The translations under genes and the position numbers were made by a program. A DNA stretch of 64,000 nucleotides, from the IMG/VR virus record IMGVR_UViG_3300047576_000027, positions 43,604 through 107,603 of that record; one strand, 5' to 3'. Below the pieces are notes generated by a model that made no database searches, was not told the origin of the DNA, and saw only the letters and a list, made by a program, of their open reading frames with translations. Positions 49,971 through 56,239 of this stretch are shown piece by piece (position 1 is the stretch's first letter; every line of letters begins with the position of its first letter). The stretch is from a virus. Its lineage: Duplodnaviria; Caudoviricetes.

Positions 49971-51428
49971 GTGAATACCAAGAATCCCGGCGCGCAACTC
50001 ATCGAGCGCGCGCAAAAAACAGGAAGTTCTGCCGCCACGGCAAAAGGCGCATTCCGCGCACTGGTCGCCAAACTCAAGATTATGCCTGACGTTTTCGCGA
50101 TGGCGAAACGGGAGAAAAGGACGACGACGCGCGCGGCCTGGTATGCCGCGCAGCATAAACGCCGCGCCGATGCTCGCTATGAGCCGATGGCCGCAAAACA
50201 GGCCAAGTCCCTGCGACTGCCCACGCGGGACATGCTCGCATCGTGCAAGCGACTGCCAGCCGGCTTGACCGCTGCCGAGCGCGCATCCATCCAACCGATG
50301 CGCGAAGCGGTAACTGCCTGGCGAGCCAGACCGCTCTACGTTCGCGCTTATTTTTCCACTCCGAATGGCGTACCGGACAAAGAGCGGAAATTGGCCGAGG
50401 TGCACAAAGGCTACATGGGAGAGTCCCCCATTTGCGCCCGGTATGCGGAATACAATTACGCTTGGGGTGCGCTGCGCGTCCACTCGCCCGGTAAATGCGT
50501 GCTCCCGTCCAGCGTCGGAATGCGGGAGACTGGCAGTAATCGGGACTGGACCAAGCGCAGCACCCTGGACCGCAAGGCAAACTATTTCCTCGCTTACCCG
50601 CGCGTGGAAGATCGCGAAACGAAGGGCGCGTGGACTGGCTACCTCGTGGTTCCAACCGCATACCGGCAGCCGAATAAAGAGCTCGTCATCAAGCGCAGTA
50701 AGCACCATATCTGCATACCGGGTATGATGCGCGCCGATGTCCCCATCACGAAGGGCGACGGCAGGCGCGTCTGGCCCGCACATATTCAGCGCCGGATTCT
50801 CTCGATCATCGCGCCTGCCCCTATCTCGTTTTCCGCCGTGCGGACGGGCGGTGCGAAAAAGGCAGCCATATCCGGCGCTCTCCTCGCCGATCACGCAGTG
50901 TCTGGTATGTGGCTGACCAGCGATGCTTACACTGCTCGCGAGGTTCGCGAGTGGCTCAAGACCGAGCTGAATCGCGCACTGGCGCATCCCGCGCGCCTCT
51001 CAAGCGATCTGTATGTACTTCCGTCCGTTGATGCGGATATGGTTACACGCCACGACGCCACGGGAGCACAAACCGGCGTGGCCGTTCGCCGGGACTATGG
51101 CTGGGAGCACGGGGTAGACCGTGCCGAGTGCGACCGGGAAACCGCGCGGAAAACTGAGATCGCCGCGCAGCGGGCGCGTGAAGCAAGAGCGACGGCTAAA
51201 CAGCAGCGCCGTGAGCGGTTGTTTGCGCGACTGGCAACTATACCGGTCCGCGCAGAAATGGTTCGGGCTGAGGGCGCGTGTATGGCTGGTATCGAGTCCT
51301 GGTGCCGGGCGCACGGCAAAAGCGTGGGAGAGACAGTGCCTCTCCGCACGCTCGCGAGCGACAACCAGGCACGGGCGTACGCGCTGCGGATTGCCCATCG
51401 AATCCTTGCCTCGCAGGTGAACGCATGA
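49971..51428 (+). CDS. Large Arg/Ala-rich hypothetical protein
   Basis: RBS AGGAG; C-terminal GACMAGIESWC motif. Confidence 0.65.
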   Translation: MNTKNPGAQLIERAQKTGSSAATAKGAFRALVAKLKIMPDVFAMAKREKRTTTRAAWYAAQHKRRADARYEPMAAKQAKSLRLPTRDMLASCKRLPAGLTAAERASIQPMREAVTAWRARPLYVRAYFSTPNGVPDKERKLAEVHKGYMGESPICARYAEYNYAWGALRVHSPGKCVLPSSVGMRETGSNRDWTKRSTLDRKANYFLAYPRVEDRETKGAWTGYLVVPTAYRQPNKELVIKRSKHHICIPGMMRADVPITKGDGRRVWPAHIQRRILSIIAPAPISFSAVRTGGAKKAAISGALLADHAVSGMWLTSDAYTAREVREWLKTELNRALAHPARLSSDLYVLPSVDADMVTRHDATGAQTGVAVRRDYGWEHGVDRAECDRETARKTEIAAQRAREARATAKQQRRERLFARLATIPVRAEMVRAEGACMAGIESWCRAHGKSVGETVPLRTLASDNQARAYALRIAHRILASQVNA

Positions 51429-51640
51429 GCCATGACCGTGCCGGATGGCGAGAGAGGAAACGGGATGGCGCAAAGTCATCCCGTCCGCGCGGCGGGCAGC
51501 CGGGCGCGAGGAATGTCGGGAAGATCCGGGACTTGATTGGCCAGACGTTCGGGCAGCTCACCGTGACAGTGTTCGCGGGGCGCGAACCTGAACACGGCCA
51601 TAACCTCGACGCCAGGGCGTTATCCGACTCTGCGTGCTGA
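51425..51640 (+). pseudogene. Remnant of HNH/AP2-type homing endonuclease
   Basis: RDLIGQTFGQLTV N-terminal motif without nuclease domain. Confidence 0.45.
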
Positions 51641-51691
51641 ATTATAGAGAGCGCGGCAACCCCGCGCCCTGAAAGGAGGGTGACTGATGAG

Positions 51692-51782
51692 AAAGTAAGC
51701 GGAGAGCGCGCCTGCCTTGAGGAGTCGGGCGCGTAACGCACCACTCGAAAAGAGTGCCGGATCTCAAGCTCCGGATGCGTTT
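51692..51782 (+). ncRNA. Twister-like self-cleaving ribozyme (P5-type permutation)
   Basis: GCG-GAGAG-P1(CGCGCCTG/CGGGCGCG)-TAA-CGC-P3(CACTC/GAGTG)-P4(CCGGA/TCCGG) with loop TCTCAAGC. Confidence 0.7.
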
Positions 51783-51797
51783 AAGGGGAAAAAGACA

Positions 51798-52007
51798 ATG
51801 CCAAAGTTTAACGTAAAAATAGACCGTTCGCGCGTCACCGAATCGTCAGTTGAGATTGAAGTCTCTGCAAAAGACGAATGTGCCGCGCAGGAGAAAGCCG
51901 AGAAGATGGTAGAGAAAGCTATCGTGAAGGGTGATTGCGATTCTGAGTTTGACTGGGAAGAGACGAACACAGATGACAGCTATGAATATGAGGTGACTAA
52001 GTTATGA
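51798..52007 (+). CDS. Small acidic protein (DpnD/PcfM-like)
   Basis: MPKFNVKI...IEVSAKDECAAQEKA. Confidence 0.6.
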   Translation: MPKFNVKIDRSRVTESSVEIEVSAKDECAAQEKAEKMVEKAIVKGDCDSEFDWEETNTDDSYEYEVTKL

Positions 52008-53782: not shown

Positions 53783-56239
53783 TTACCCCCCAAACCTCAA
53801 AAAATAACGCCAAGGCCGATCTCCGTCAATTGGCACCTGAGCACGGCTCCAGCCGGAAACCTTCTTCATGACGCGGCCGACGCGGTTGCCGGCCGCGTCC
53901 CGCTGCGCCTGATACAGGGGCGGCAAATGATCGATGATTTCCTCTTTGGAAACAAAGTAGCCGTACCGGTTCCCCAAGTGCTCAGGTGTCTTGCTCGATA
54001 GTGCCTTTTGGAGCGCACCCCGCACCATCCCGTCCCAGGTATCCTCGGGCACCCGCGCGGCCTGCTCGATCTTCGCCGTTACGATCAGATCCGCATCTTC
54101 TTCGTGGTCGAAGTACCACCGCTGCCCCGCGCGGTATTTGTGAAGAGCCTCGGCCATCAGTTTGTCCCGGTCGGCACGCAAGCCATCCAGATCGAACTGC
54201 CCGCGGCAGGTAATAGGCCACCAGCGCCGATCCTCTTCAAGCGCCCAATCGTCGCCATTGACGGTCGCCATGAAAACGCACTGCCGCAGTTTTTTCTCGT
54301 GCCGGTGTCCCCACGTCGGCCGGAACTTTTCGAAGTCGCGCGTGACCCAGGACTTCACGCTGCGCATCTCGGATTTTCCCAGCACGTCCAACTCGTCCAT
54401 CAGGATTCCCCACACGCCGGCATGCAGTAACGCCTGATTGTCCTTTGTCGTGACGTCGCCGAGAATCACGGCGTAATACTCGCCAAAGACGATTTCCGCT
54501 ATCGTGGACTTTCCGATGCCTTTCAATCCCTCCAGAACCAGAACGTGATGCACTTTACACCCCGGCTGAAAGATGCGGGCGATTGCGGATATCCACCAGC
54601 GCTCGCCAATGGCGGCGATAAACGCTTGTAGCCGGGCGGCCTCATCTGAATCGTCCGACTCGGCCGGACCGGCTCCGCAATAACGAGGCAACCATCCCGG
54701 AAGCCGCTCTACCCCATCCCACGCAGCGAGGGAGTTGAGGTAATCTTTGACCGGGTGGAAGGAATGCGCCTTCGCCCAGCAATCGACGGACCGGCGAACG
54801 GTATCAATCGACCATTTATAATCGCCGGTAGTTTTTTCCAGCCACGATTGCACGAGCGTATCGTGGTGATCCTTGACGGGTTCGCCCGCTTTCAAATCTA
54901 CCGGCGACGGCAGGTCCGCAGTAACCAAAGGCTCCCCCGAGAATTCGTTCCAGGCGAGCTTCCCCCGCCAGTCGGGATGGTTTTCGAAATAGAGCAAGGC
55001 GTTCGTCACGCACGGGGCGGGAGGGCCGAATCCGTCTTTGGCGGGTTTCAGGATCAGCTCGGACTGCCAGCCGTCTTGGGTGGGGGCTGACGTTCGGAGT
55101 TTCGCTACCTCCGTCTTGAGTTCCAGGTTCCACCTGGACGGCACGAAATCCCGTTTGTAGACCGCTCTGAGGCGTTCACGGGCTTCGGCCTGGATAATAT
55201 CCCCGGCAGCGGCGAGGGCCGTGATGTAGGGCGCGGGGACGTCGAGAACGGCATAAATTTTCGCGCTGTCCTTAGCGGCGATCACTTCTTCGAGAAGCCG
55301 ACGGGCTTTTTGGAGGGAGGATTCCAGAGGGGGCTCGGGGTCTGGAGCGGCCAGCACGGGCGCGCTGACAGCATGGCCGTTAACCTGTTGGCGGCGGGGT
55401 TGATACGACGGCTCCCGCGCCGGTTCGCTGTATGCGGACCTGAGACTCGCTTCGGCCTCGGCTTGGGTATATAACTGCCGCTCGCCGCGAGGATTGACGG
55501 ACGGCACACGCGACTGGAAATTGAGAAGATACCGCCTTGCTTCCGATTCTGGTATCTTGTTGTCCCGCAACTGGATAGCCAGCCAAAAACCCGCGTTGTT
55601 GCGGCCATTCGAAAGCGGACGGCCCAGTGCGTCCCCTACCAGACGATCACCGATATTGACGGAAGGATTGACCGGCAGCGGGGCGGGTGAAACAGTGGCG
55701 GGCGCAATTGCTTCTTCCAGTTTTGACTTTGCCCGCAGGAACTTGCCCAACTGGTCCGGTAGCTGGTCGAAAGGGTAGGGCTCCAAGTCCCGAAGTATGC
55801 GGTAATCGCCGCCCGCATTGGACCCGAGCAGGACGATGTAACCGCCGTCTCCGCGAACGTCTACGCCAGGCCACGGCCAGGTATTTTTCCCCGATTTCGC
55901 GTTCATGGTCGGAACGCGCCAGCCCGGATGGGTAAAATAGACGTGGTATCCCCCGCCCGCGCTACGGACGTGCGGATCGAGTCCCCACTCTTTCAGCCAC
56001 CTCGCGCCTTCTTCGCCATCGAAGTCCACGCCAATAACGCCCGATACGGCGCCGGTAACCAATCCCCACCGGTCGGGGTTCAGTACGCGGTCCCAGTCCT
56101 GTAATTGTGACTCAGAAGGCGGGGCGGTCTGGTATGGTTTCCATGTGTTCAGGCATGGCCCCTTACTGTCTCCCCGGCTGGGAATCATGGACCAGCCGCG
56201 ATGCAGGAACGTGATGGCCGCTTCGGTTAGGGGGGACAA
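53783..56239 (-). CDS. Bifunctional primase-polymerase (Prim-Pol) fused to VapE/VirE helicase
   Basis: GVDFD, GGYHVYF, DVRGDGGYIV; GRNNAGF; LEGLKGIGKST Walker A, LMDELD, MATVN, DRRWWP. Confidence 0.92.
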   Translation of the reverse strand: MSPLTEAAITFLHRGWSMIPSRGDSKGPCLNTWKPYQTAPPSESQLQDWDRVLNPDRWGLVTGAVSGVIGVDFDGEEGARWLKEWGLDPHVRSAGGGYHVYFTHPGWRVPTMNAKSGKNTWPWPGVDVRGDGGYIVLLGSNAGGDYRILRDLEPYPFDQLPDQLGKFLRAKSKLEEAIAPATVSPAPLPVNPSVNIGDRLVGDALGRPLSNGRNNAGFWLAIQLRDNKIPESEARRYLLNFQSRVPSVNPRGERQLYTQAEAEASLRSAYSEPAREPSYQPRRQQVNGHAVSAPVLAAPDPEPPLESSLQKARRLLEEVIAAKDSAKIYAVLDVPAPYITALAAAGDIIQAEARERLRAVYKRDFVPSRWNLELKTEVAKLRTSAPTQDGWQSELILKPAKDGFGPPAPCVTNALLYFENHPDWRGKLAWNEFSGEPLVTADLPSPVDLKAGEPVKDHHDTLVQSWLEKTTGDYKWSIDTVRRSVDCWAKAHSFHPVKDYLNSLAAWDGVERLPGWLPRYCGAGPAESDDSDEAARLQAFIAAIGERWWISAIARIFQPGCKVHHVLVLEGLKGIGKSTIAEIVFGEYYAVILGDVTTKDNQALLHAGVWGILMDELDVLGKSEMRSVKSWVTRDFEKFRPTWGHRHEKKLRQCVFMATVNGDDWALEEDRRWWPITCRGQFDLDGLRADRDKLMAEALHKYRAGQRWYFDHEEDADLIVTAKIEQAARVPEDTWDGMVRGALQKALSSKTPEHLGNRYGYFVSKEEIIDHLPPLYQAQRDAAGNRVGRVMKKVSGWSRAQVPIDGDRPWRYFLRFGG

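What the first reader, a model, noticed from the sequence alone, without database searches (positions are those of the whole stretch)
51672..51782. Twister ribozyme (P5 permutation) overlapped by a 3-codon minigene
All twister elements are in order: P2' GCG, GAGAG, an 8-bp P1, the U^AA site (51734/51735), P2 CGC, P3, and P4 with loop UCUCAAGC (T1 CUC pairs with GAG). The T2 strand reads AC rather than AGC, so it may be a variant, inactive or a sequence error. A strong SD (AAAGGAGG) plus ATG AGA AAG TAA overlaps the 5' P5 strand, so ribosome loading could gate cleavage of the early mRNA.
Basis: partly seen in the sequence, partly recalled or inferred. Interest (0 to 1): 0.7.

Follow-up and report, generated by a model that had tools for sequence, protein, structure and literature searches.

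The report
Lone, flawed twister ribozyme in phage
Between two genes of a peat-soil phage sits a single copy of a known self-cutting RNA (a type-P5 twister ribozyme) that is intact except for one unpaired base in a contact that all its natural relatives keep paired, so it is probably a slow or recently disabled copy of an ordinary phage element.

Summary
At 51699-51774 (+) all twister parts lie in type-P5 order with the U^A site at 51734/51735, and folding predicts P1, P3 and P4 at about 0.99 probability. It is the only such site in the 107-kb phage, and 439 simulated genomes gave one hit at the loosest setting.

No Rfam twister model scores it, even at E<=10. A model I built from 26 Rfam-verified phage type-P5 twisters ranks it first in the window (24.3 bits, E about 7e-4; next hit 11.5 bits). 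Verified members score 36-70 bits.

Its setting matches that family: a stop codon abuts the 5' edge and the next gene starts 23 nt after P4.

Two features have no counterpart among the natural relatives I collected. T2 reads A13.C31, a G-to-A substitution rather than a deletion. An A-U pair sits where G23-C32 is invariant.

An independent peat sample carries the same sequence, so an assembly error is unlikely. No sibling copy and no RNA data were found.

The 'P5 stem' is not a real helix, and the strong ribosome-binding site plus 3-codon minigene is not statistically unusual.

Twisters in phages were already noted many times in this scan (284 notes). Verdict: a twister-derived element, probably impaired. 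Interest is modest.

The parts
51425..51640 (+). 71-codon ORF. Its ATG overlaps the TGA of the upstream 485-codon ORF (ATGA). Weak resemblance to the N-terminal part of phage HNH endonucleases, so probably a truncated remnant. Context only.
   Evidence: phrog_374, E 0.005. A homologous locus in a JGI contig has a full HNH_3 gene at this position.
51647..51668 (+). Upstream hairpin (GCGCGG 51650-55 with CCGCGC 51662-67) headed by GAGAGCGCG, a 9-nt direct repeat of 51702-51710. It looks like a duplicated T1-plus-P1 half and can compete for the P1 3' strand.
   Evidence: Sequence. P1 pair probability drops to 0.16 in the 51600-51860 fold.
51672..51699 (+). SD-like AAAGGAGG (51672-79) and 3-codon ORF ATG AGA AAG TAA (51688-99). 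The stop codon abuts the ribozyme's 5' edge.
   Evidence: Not statistically unusual. Stop-codon abutment is typical of the family.
51699..51706 (+). P2 3' strand GCG (51699-701), then G45 A46 and the T1 strand GAG (GAGAG 51702-06).
51707..51733 (+). P1 hairpin: 8 bp (51707-14 with 51726-33), 11-nt loop.
   Evidence: pair probability 0.99 in the local fold.
51734..51736 (+). U^AA. Predicted scissile bond between U51734 and A51735.
   Evidence: Alignment to the Rfam Twister-P5 consensus and to verified members. Cleavage itself was not tested.
51737..51741 (+). P2 5' strand CGC (51737-39) and T2 strand AC (51740-41). A51740 stands where every natural relative has a base that pairs with L4 position 31.
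51742..51756 (+). P3 hairpin CACUC / GAGUG, loop GAAAA. It joins T2 and P4 with no linker, as in the P3-bearing natural members (L045, L164, L077).
51757..51774 (+). P4 (CCGGA / UCCGG) with loop L4 UCUCAAGC (51762-69). The A51761-U51770 pair flanks the loop where relatives have the invariant G-C.
   Evidence: No other IMG/VR twister has this closing pair.
51785..52007 (+). SD-like GGGGA and the 69-codon downstream gene (ATG 51798). It starts 23 nt after P4.

Best explanation
The element is a descendant of the type-P5 twister ribozymes that phages place between cistrons. In that family the upstream gene's stop codon abuts the P2 3' strand, the RNA folds into P2-T1-P1 / P2-T2-P3 / P4, and self-cleavage after the U of U^AA splits the polycistronic mRNA. 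The upstream piece ends in the P1 hairpin with a 2',3'-cyclic phosphate. The downstream piece starts with a 5'-OH followed by the P3 and P4 hairpins and the next gene's ribosome-binding site.

In this phage the copy has kept every helix, T1 and all conserved single-stranded bases. It carries A instead of G at T2 position 13 (A51740), which leaves an A.C mismatch in the tertiary contact that is most critical for forming the active site. I therefore think it cleaves slowly or not at all at neutral pH. It is either a recently disabled copy or a strongly attenuated one.

Shown: the anatomy, significant similarity to verified family members, the shared context, the T2 defect, and that the defect is not an assembly artefact.

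Inferred: homology, the cleavage site, and the loss of activity.
For: Anatomy and pairings.

Uniqueness against chance.

Custom covariance model R1, built from 26 sequences that pass Rfam RF02684: the candidate is the top hit of the window at 24.3 bits, E about 7e-4, and the next hit scores 11.5 bits.

Near-identical local wording to verified members. L043:7743-7798 reads A-GCG-GAGGG...UAA-CGC-GC. L138 and L164 share the GAGAG / UCUCAAGC version of T1. L045 and L164 share the P3 layout.

Context: in 33 of 38 natural copies an ORF stops within about 10 nt of the start of the P2 3' strand (mostly 1-4 nt before it), and the next gene starts 8-44 nt after P4. The candidate has its stop at -2 and the start at +23.

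T2 defect: among 31 distinct descriptor-positive natural twisters both T2 positions always pair (G-C, C-G, A-U or G.U), including covaried cases such as L077 (AC with AAGU) and L107:1527 (AG with CU).

Published biochemistry: every substitution of G13 in the rice twister gave relative activity below 0.2 (Kobori & Yokobayashi 2016, PMC5113685). T2 is called the most critical long-range interaction (Gebetsberger & Micura, PMC5408937).

The same sequence occurs in a second peat run.
Against: - No Rfam twister model reports it, even at E<=10.
- Its R1 score lies below every verified type-P5 member (36-70 bits).
- Apart from near-identical copies in two peat runs, no sibling or relative was found in IMG/VR, JGI metagenomes, GTDB genomes or INPHARED phages, so there is no covariation evidence for this lineage.
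- Homologues of the downstream gene have no twister upstream.
- Against 'impaired': only one position is defective while about 60 others are intact. The A-U closing pair and the U-A pair in T1 preserve structure, which argues for recent selection.
- The mutagenesis was done at pH 8 on a twister that lacks P3.
- No cleavage or RNA data exist for this sequence.
Confidence: 0.5

Rival explanations
1. It is a fully functional variant twister. T2 works with one Watson-Crick pair plus an A.C apposition, stabilised by stacking between P2 and the directly adjoining P3. Alternatively a protonated A+.C wobble forms, which has the same shape as the G.U wobble found naturally at this position. Cleavage at 51734/51735 then processes the mRNA ahead of the 69-codon gene, possibly with a stronger pH dependence than usual.
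For: All other helices and conserved bases are intact. Two structure-preserving differences from the family majority (U-A in T1, A-U at the L4 closing pair) suggest that selection acted on the fold. G13.U31 wobbles occur in verified members L043:7178-7234 and L057:1632-1687, and C31U is tolerated in the rice twister (PMC5113685). The allele is present in two independent peat samples. Divergent but covarying twisters can score as low as 26 bits in R1 (L107:1527). The context is canonical.
Against: None of 31 natural T2 helices has a true mismatch. G13 substitutions were inactive in vitro. No second example of AC with AAGC was found. The A+.C idea is inference only.
Confidence: 0.3
2. It is not a ribozyme at all. 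It is a chance or convergent set of GC-rich hairpins in a 5' untranslated region (for example mRNA-stabilising hairpins or an RNase processing site) that happens to resemble a twister.
For: No Rfam hit. It is a singleton with no conservation. The first-stage scan looked at very many windows, so rare look-alikes are expected somewhere. Competing CG-rich pairings exist with the upstream hairpin.
Against: The descriptor hit rate in simulated sequence is about 1 per 94 Mb at the loosest setting, and the candidate is far stronger than that setting requires. R1 gives E about 7e-4. The element has the P3-bearing architecture with zero-length junctions and the family-typical placement between a stop codon and a ribosome-binding site.
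Confidence: 0.12
3. The true phage sequence has G at 51740, and the A is an assembly or sequencing error.
For: It is a single-base difference from the family consensus, in a metagenome-assembled genome.
Against: A contig from a different run and study (X2) covers 51608-51758 with 0 differences and 0 gaps. The depth there is low (2.2).
Confidence: 0.03

Closest known systems
Type-P5 twister ribozyme (Rfam RF02684, clan CL00120; class of Roth et al. 2014 as reviewed in PMC5408937), especially the GC-rich copies arrayed between genes of uncultivated phages (for example IMG/VR loci L043, L138, L164, L045)
   Same: - Same order of elements: P2 3' strand, GA plus T1 strand, closed P1 hairpin, U^AA, P2 5' strand, T2 strand, optional P3, then P4 with loop U-NNN-AA-NN.
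- Same 3-bp P2 (CGC/GCG) as L043:7743-7798.
- Same GAG/CUC version of T1 as L138 and L164.
- Same junction-free P3 as L045, L164 and L077.
- Same placement between a stop codon and the next ribosome-binding site.
   Different: - A13.C31 mismatch in T2, which is always paired in the natural copies examined.
- An A-U pair flanks L4 where G23-C32 is invariant. Equivalently, one extra A-U pair sits on top of the G-C.
- 11-nt P1 loop.
- Scores below Rfam's threshold, and below E<=10.
- It is the only copy in its genome, whereas several of the related phage contigs examined (L043, L039, L047, L071) carry five or more each.
Oryza sativa Osa-1-4 twister (type P1; crystal structure 4OJI; mutational scan in PMC5113685)
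   Same: Same catalytic core wording (U^AA; GAGNG; UCNCAAGC) and the same 'UG-CCGG...CCGG-AU' surroundings of P4.
   Different: Permuted (open at P5 rather than at P1). Has P3. P2 is 3 bp rather than 4. It carries the G13A-equivalent change, which gave relative activity below 0.2 in Osa-1-4.
Lambda bar-type minigenes (two- or three-codon ORFs that cause peptidyl-tRNA drop-off; from my own knowledge, not checked here)
   Same: A strong SD followed by ATG, two codons and a stop.
   Different: Nothing here shows that the mini-ORF is translated or selected. SD-plus-tiny-ORF combinations are common in this genome.

Membership tests
Twister ribozyme, type P5 (RF02684) | Helices P2, P1 (closed) and P4 in the permuted order, with U^AA between P1 and P2 | tested here: met
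   P1 8 bp, P2 3 bp, P4 5 bp. P1, P3 and P4 pair probabilities are about 0.99 in the local fold.
Twister ribozyme, type P5 (RF02684) | Pseudoknot T1: three Watson-Crick pairs between L4 positions 25-27 and the strand after G45 A46 | tested here: met
   CUC 51763-65 pairs with GAG 51704-06, preceded by GA. The same variant occurs in verified L138 and L164.
Twister ribozyme, type P5 (RF02684) | Pseudoknot T2: two pairs between the dinucleotide after P2 and L4 positions 30-31 | tested here: not met
   A51740.C51769 is a mismatch and only C51741-G51768 pairs. 31 of 31 natural copies pair at both positions.
Twister ribozyme, type P5 (RF02684) | Essentially invariant G-C pair directly flanking the 8-nt L4 core | tested here: not met
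   The candidate has A51761-U51770 there, and the G-C lies one step further out. All natural rows have G...C. No other IMG/VR example has the A-U form.
Twister ribozyme, type P5 (RF02684) | Other conserved loop bases (U24, A28, A29, G30, C31; G45, A46; A after the scissile bond) | tested here: met
   UCUCAAGC, GAGAG and UAA are read directly and aligned.
Twister ribozyme, type P5 (RF02684) | Score at or above Rfam's gathering threshold (37.6 bits) | tested here: not met
   No match at gathering or at E<=10. Controls from other phages score 39-59 bits.
Twister ribozyme, type P5 (RF02684) | Significant similarity to verified members under an independent covariance model | tested here: met
   R1 gives 24.3 bits, E about 7e-4, the top hit of the window. 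This is below the 36-70 bits of verified type-P5 members.
Twister ribozyme, type P5 (RF02684) | Site-specific self-cleavage giving 2',3'-cyclic phosphate and 5'-OH ends | not testable with these tools
   No RNA run is listed for this DNA.
Phage intercistronic twister arrangement | Upstream ORF stop codon at the 5' edge, and the next gene's SD and start within about 10-45 nt after P4 | tested here: met
   The candidate has its stop at -2 and its start at +23. However, the ORF that stops there has only 3 codons.
Hammerhead ribozyme | CUGAUGA and GAAA cores joined by stem II, with stems I and III | tested here: not met
   The words CUGAUGAG (51684-91) and CGAAA (51746-50) are present, but no stem II can form and there is no Rfam hammerhead match at E<=10.

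The most novel reading that the evidence does not exclude
The A.C apposition in T2 is functional. It would form a protonated A+.C wobble, the same shape as the natural G.U at that position. That would make this a naturally pH-tuned or attenuated twister. Its folding would be further timed by ribosomes terminating on the 3-codon ORF that abuts its 5' edge and by the competing upstream half-twister hairpin. Together these would make a natural ribozyme switch controlling the downstream gene.
Probability: 0.08. Interest if true: 0.65.

Novelty: new variant of a known kind. Interest (0 to 1): 0.3.

Why it matters
Twister ribozymes between phage genes are a known kind of element whose biological role is still unsettled (PMC6765202). 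This copy adds little to that question by its presence alone.

Its value is as a natural experiment. It is an otherwise perfect twister with a single mismatch in the T2 tertiary contact and an A-U in place of an 'invariant' G-C. If it cleaves, it widens the accepted sequence space of the class, shows that Rfam's model misses such variants, and may reveal pH-dependent tuning. If it does not cleave, it is a rare snapshot of a ribozyme just after inactivation.

The context survey made along the way is a more general lead for what phage twisters do. Stop codons lie within about 10 nt of the start of the P2 3' strand in 33 of 38 verified phage type-P5 twisters.

Tried and rejected
- **Rfam.** cmscan of the whole window at gathering found nothing. 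cmscan of 451-nt and 106-nt stretches at E<=10 found no twister, hammerhead or other ribozyme.
- **The genome search on the phage's own genome.** RF02684 and RF03160 gave nothing. The same tool with my model R1 also failed to ring on the own genome, although direct cmsearch scores the site at 24.3 bits. Its first-look filter therefore misses this site, and searches are weak negatives.
- **Relatives by DNA.** blastn against INPHARED phages and a 20-mer of P4/L4 in IMG/VR found nothing.
- **Relatives by flanking proteins.** The 485-aa and 69-aa flanking proteins found no relatives in IMG/VR.
- **Homologues of the 69-aa gene.** Five were found. The contigs I could read carry no twister upstream and give no Rfam match.
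- **Pattern scans for siblings.** I searched for the A-U closing pair and/or the GAGAG/UCUCAAGC version of T1 in IMG/VR, JGI metagenomes and GTDB genomes. All matches were chance hits in coding sequence.
- **RNA data.** No RNA holder is listed for this DNA, so nothing can be said about expression or ends.
- **71-aa ORF.** tblastn against phages found no match.
Pair probability is about 0 and duplex energy is -1.2 kcal/mol.
- **Alternative T2 registers.** Shifting the L4 partner to CU, using GCU, or using the GC at the start of P4 gives no arrangement with two pairs in the canonical topology. This was checked by hand.
- **Hammerhead reading of CUGAUGAG...CGAAA.** Rejected, because no stem II can form.
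- **Papers not held.** Roth 2014 and Weinberg 2015 could not be read. The mutational-scan supplement is not held either, so the exact activity of G13A is known only as below 0.2.

Full report
**What is there.** The window is the 3' 64 kb of a 107,603-bp IMG/VR phage record. DNA of this phage is held by peat metagenomes. The finding lies in a 157-nt gap between two + strand genes. Upstream is a 71-codon ORF (51425-51640). It is weakly like the N-terminus of HNH endonucleases, and its ATG overlaps the stop of a 485-codon ORF. Downstream is a 69-codon gene that starts at 51798.

Read directly and checked pair by pair, the gap holds these parts in order:
- GCG (P2 3' strand, 51699-701)
- GAGAG (51702-06)
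- an 8-bp hairpin P1 (51707-14 with 51726-33)
- UAA (51734-36)
- CGC (P2 5' strand)
- AC (T2 strand, 51740-41)
- a 5-bp hairpin P3 (51742-56)
- a 5-bp hairpin P4 (51757-74) with loop UCUCAAGC

The loop's CUC pairs with the GAG of GAGAG (T1). The MFE fold of 51660-51800 reproduces P1, P2, P3 and P4 (z = -3.2). P1, P3 and P4 have pair probabilities of about 0.99 locally.

**Is it more than chance?** I wrote a descriptor for the type-P5 order. It requires GA plus three T1 pairs, P1 of at least 4 bp abutting UAA, P2 of 3-4 nt, at most one T2 mismatch, and P4 of at least 4 bp around N-U-NNN-AA-NN-N'. It finds only this site in the whole genome. In 439 first-order Markov simulations of the genome (94 Mb, counting both strands) it hit once at its loosest setting and never with a perfect P2. 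Within this genome the site is therefore not a chance event. The first stage scanned a very large amount of sequence, so I do not treat this figure alone as proof.

Rfam 15 has no match in the window at gathering thresholds. No twister match appears at E<=10 on 451-nt or 106-nt stretches. Genome-wide searches with RF02684 and RF03160 are also empty, but that pipeline also misses the site with my own model, so these two results are weak.

**Bringing in real relatives.** Two IMG/VR pattern scans left the T2 strand free. One searched GGAGGG...TAA...GTCCCAAGCC and the other its GAGAG/UCUCAAGC counterpart. They recovered GC-rich phage contigs with arrays of twisters. 29 of these pass RF02684 at 39-59 bits. 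The printed Rfam consensus gave the reference anatomy: cGCA-GAGgG-[P1]-UAA-UGCg-GC-Aaga-cCG-G-UCcCAAGC-C-CGg.

Aligned with these, the candidate is plainly of the same make:
- L043:7743-7798 reads A-GCG-GAGGG...UAA-CGC-GC. This shows that a 3-bp P2 is natural and that the candidate's 'AC' is a G-to-A substitution of T2 position 13, not a missing G.
- L138 and L164 use the same GAG/CUC version of T1.
- L045, L164 and L077 have P3 joined to T2 and P4 without linkers, as the candidate does.

I built a covariance model from 26 verified sequences with the candidate left out (R1). With filters off it ranks the candidate first in the window at 24.3 bits, E about 7e-4. The runner-up scores 11.5 bits. 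Verified type-P5 copies score 36-70 bits. The 15-28 bit range holds type-P1 twisters matched in part and divergent copies, such as L107:1527-1584, whose T2 has fully covaried to AG/CU. A low score alone therefore does not mean a dead copy.

**Context.** I examined 38 natural type-P5 copies. In 33 of them an upstream ORF that is mostly long (13 to 377 codons open, typically over 100) ends within about 10 nt of the start of the P2 3' strand, mostly 1-4 nt before it. The next gene starts 8-44 nt after P4, behind a GGAGG-type ribosome-binding site. The candidate has a UAA two bases before that point and the next ATG 23 nt after P4. This fits the published suggestion that bacterial and phage ribozymes process polycistronic mRNAs into pieces of different stability or translatability (PMC6765202). 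The difference here is that the ORF ending at the ribozyme is only ATG AGA AAG TAA, behind AAAGGAGG.

**What is wrong with it.** Two features have no natural counterpart in my sample.

1. *T2 mismatch.* A51740 faces C51769. In all 31 distinct descriptor-positive natural copies both T2 positions pair (G-C, C-G, A-U or G.U). L077 has AC paired with AAGU, which is the compensated form of exactly this change. In the rice twister every substitution of G13 gave relative activity below 0.2, whereas G.U wobbles and swapped Watson-Crick pairs were tolerated (PMC5113685). T2 is described as the most critical long-range contact for forming the active site (PMC5408937).

2. *Closing pair.* The pair flanking the L4 core is A51761-U51770, where G-C is 'essentially invariant' (PMC5408937). 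It is G-C in every natural row. It can be read as G-C to A-U by two transitions, or as one extra pair on top of the G-C. Targeted scans found no other twister with it. The nearest oddity is L107:3391-3448, whose loop is expanded at the same place.

Both the closing pair and T1 preserve pairing, which speaks for selection on the fold in this lineage. Only T2 is broken.

**Error or allele?** A contig from a different peat run and study covers 51608-51758 without a single difference or gap. The A is therefore a real allele, although the depth is low. No diverged sibling exists in IMG/VR, JGI metagenomes, GTDB genomes or INPHARED. Homologues of the downstream gene lack the element. No covariation test is possible for this lineage, and no RNA run holds the sequence.

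**The minigene and P5.** Rfam's type-P5 model has no P5 stem either. The strong SD plus tiny ORF is not unusual in this genome. Only 2 of 7 AAGGAGG sites precede an ORF of 20 codons or more, and 16 of 170 GGAGG sites are followed by a start with an ORF under 20 codons. A ribosome stopping at 51697-99 would cover the P2 and T1 strands, but the same holds for the ordinary upstream genes of the natural copies. The gating idea therefore remains untested speculation. The mini-ORF may equally be what a deletion left of a former upstream gene.

A more concrete competitor for folding lies upstream. GAGAGCGCG (51647-55) repeats 51702-10 and heads a hairpin. That hairpin's CGCGCCC (51663-69) can capture the P1 3' strand, and P1 probability falls to 0.16 in the 51600-51860 fold. 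Co-transcriptional folding should still favour the local hairpins.

**Verdict.** I put about 0.85 on the element being twister-derived. Given the T2 data, my odds are:
- about 0.5 that it is impaired (slow or dead, a recent single-hit inactivation)
- about 0.3 that it is a working variant, perhaps through an A+.C wobble of the same shape as the natural G.U, helped by P3 stacking
- about 0.12 that it is only a look-alike
- about 0.03 that it is a sequence error

Because a defining feature (two T2 pairs) is not met, I file it as a variant of the twister class rather than as a plain member. Twisters in phages are known and were noted many times in this scan (284 notes in at least 202 genomes). 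This same stretch was also flagged from an overlapping window. Interest is therefore modest. It would rise only if the wild-type RNA proves to cleave.

Noticed in passing
Loci L039, L043, L045, L047, L057, L058, L071, L072, L077, L107, L138, L164 (coordinates): I examined 38 type-P5 twisters from uncultivated phages (37 scoring 36-70 bits in R1, 29 of them passing Rfam, plus the divergent L107:3391-3448 at 28 bits). In 33 of them an upstream ORF ends with its stop codon within about 10 nt of the start of the P2 3' strand, mostly 1-4 nt before it. The next gene starts 8-44 nt after P4, often behind GGAGGTTC. This tight packing between stop codon, ribozyme and ribosome-binding site may bear on what phage twisters do.
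   Followed up: partly
L107:1527-1584 (-) and L107:3391-3448 (-): Two divergent twisters lie in one 67-kb phage contig. One has a fully covaried T2 (AG with CU) and an A.A next to the active site, and scores only 26 bits. The other has an expanded L4 (G-AA-UCUCAAGC-A-C). Rfam's model did not report them at gathering.
   Followed up: partly
window 51647-51668: A 9-nt direct repeat of the twister's GAGAGCGCG heads a separate hairpin 55 nt upstream. It looks like a duplicated T1-plus-P1 half of a twister and can compete with P1 in longer transcripts.
   Followed up: partly
window 51425-51640: A 71-codon ORF has an ATGA overlap with the preceding 485-codon gene and a weak match to the N-terminal part of phage HNH endonucleases. 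A homologous locus in a JGI contig has a full 200-aa HNH_3 gene at this position, so this is probably a truncated homing-endonuclease remnant.
   Followed up: partly
L002:2472-2624 (also L003, L004, L005): The 153-nt spacer upstream of a homologue of the 69-codon gene is closed by a 10-bp long-range helix (CUGCCCUUGG with CCAAGGGCAG). It has no Rfam match at E<=1. It is a different structured RNA at the position where this phage has the twister.
   Followed up: no
window 53783-56239 (-): An 818-aa primase-polymerase / VapE-type helicase gene converges on the run of small + strand genes that follows the twister.
   Followed up: no
The genome search on G000 with model R1: The genome-search pipeline returned no match for a site that direct cmsearch scores at 24.3 bits (E about 7e-4). 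Its first-look filter can miss divergent RNA hits, so empty answers from it should be treated as weak.
   Followed up: yes
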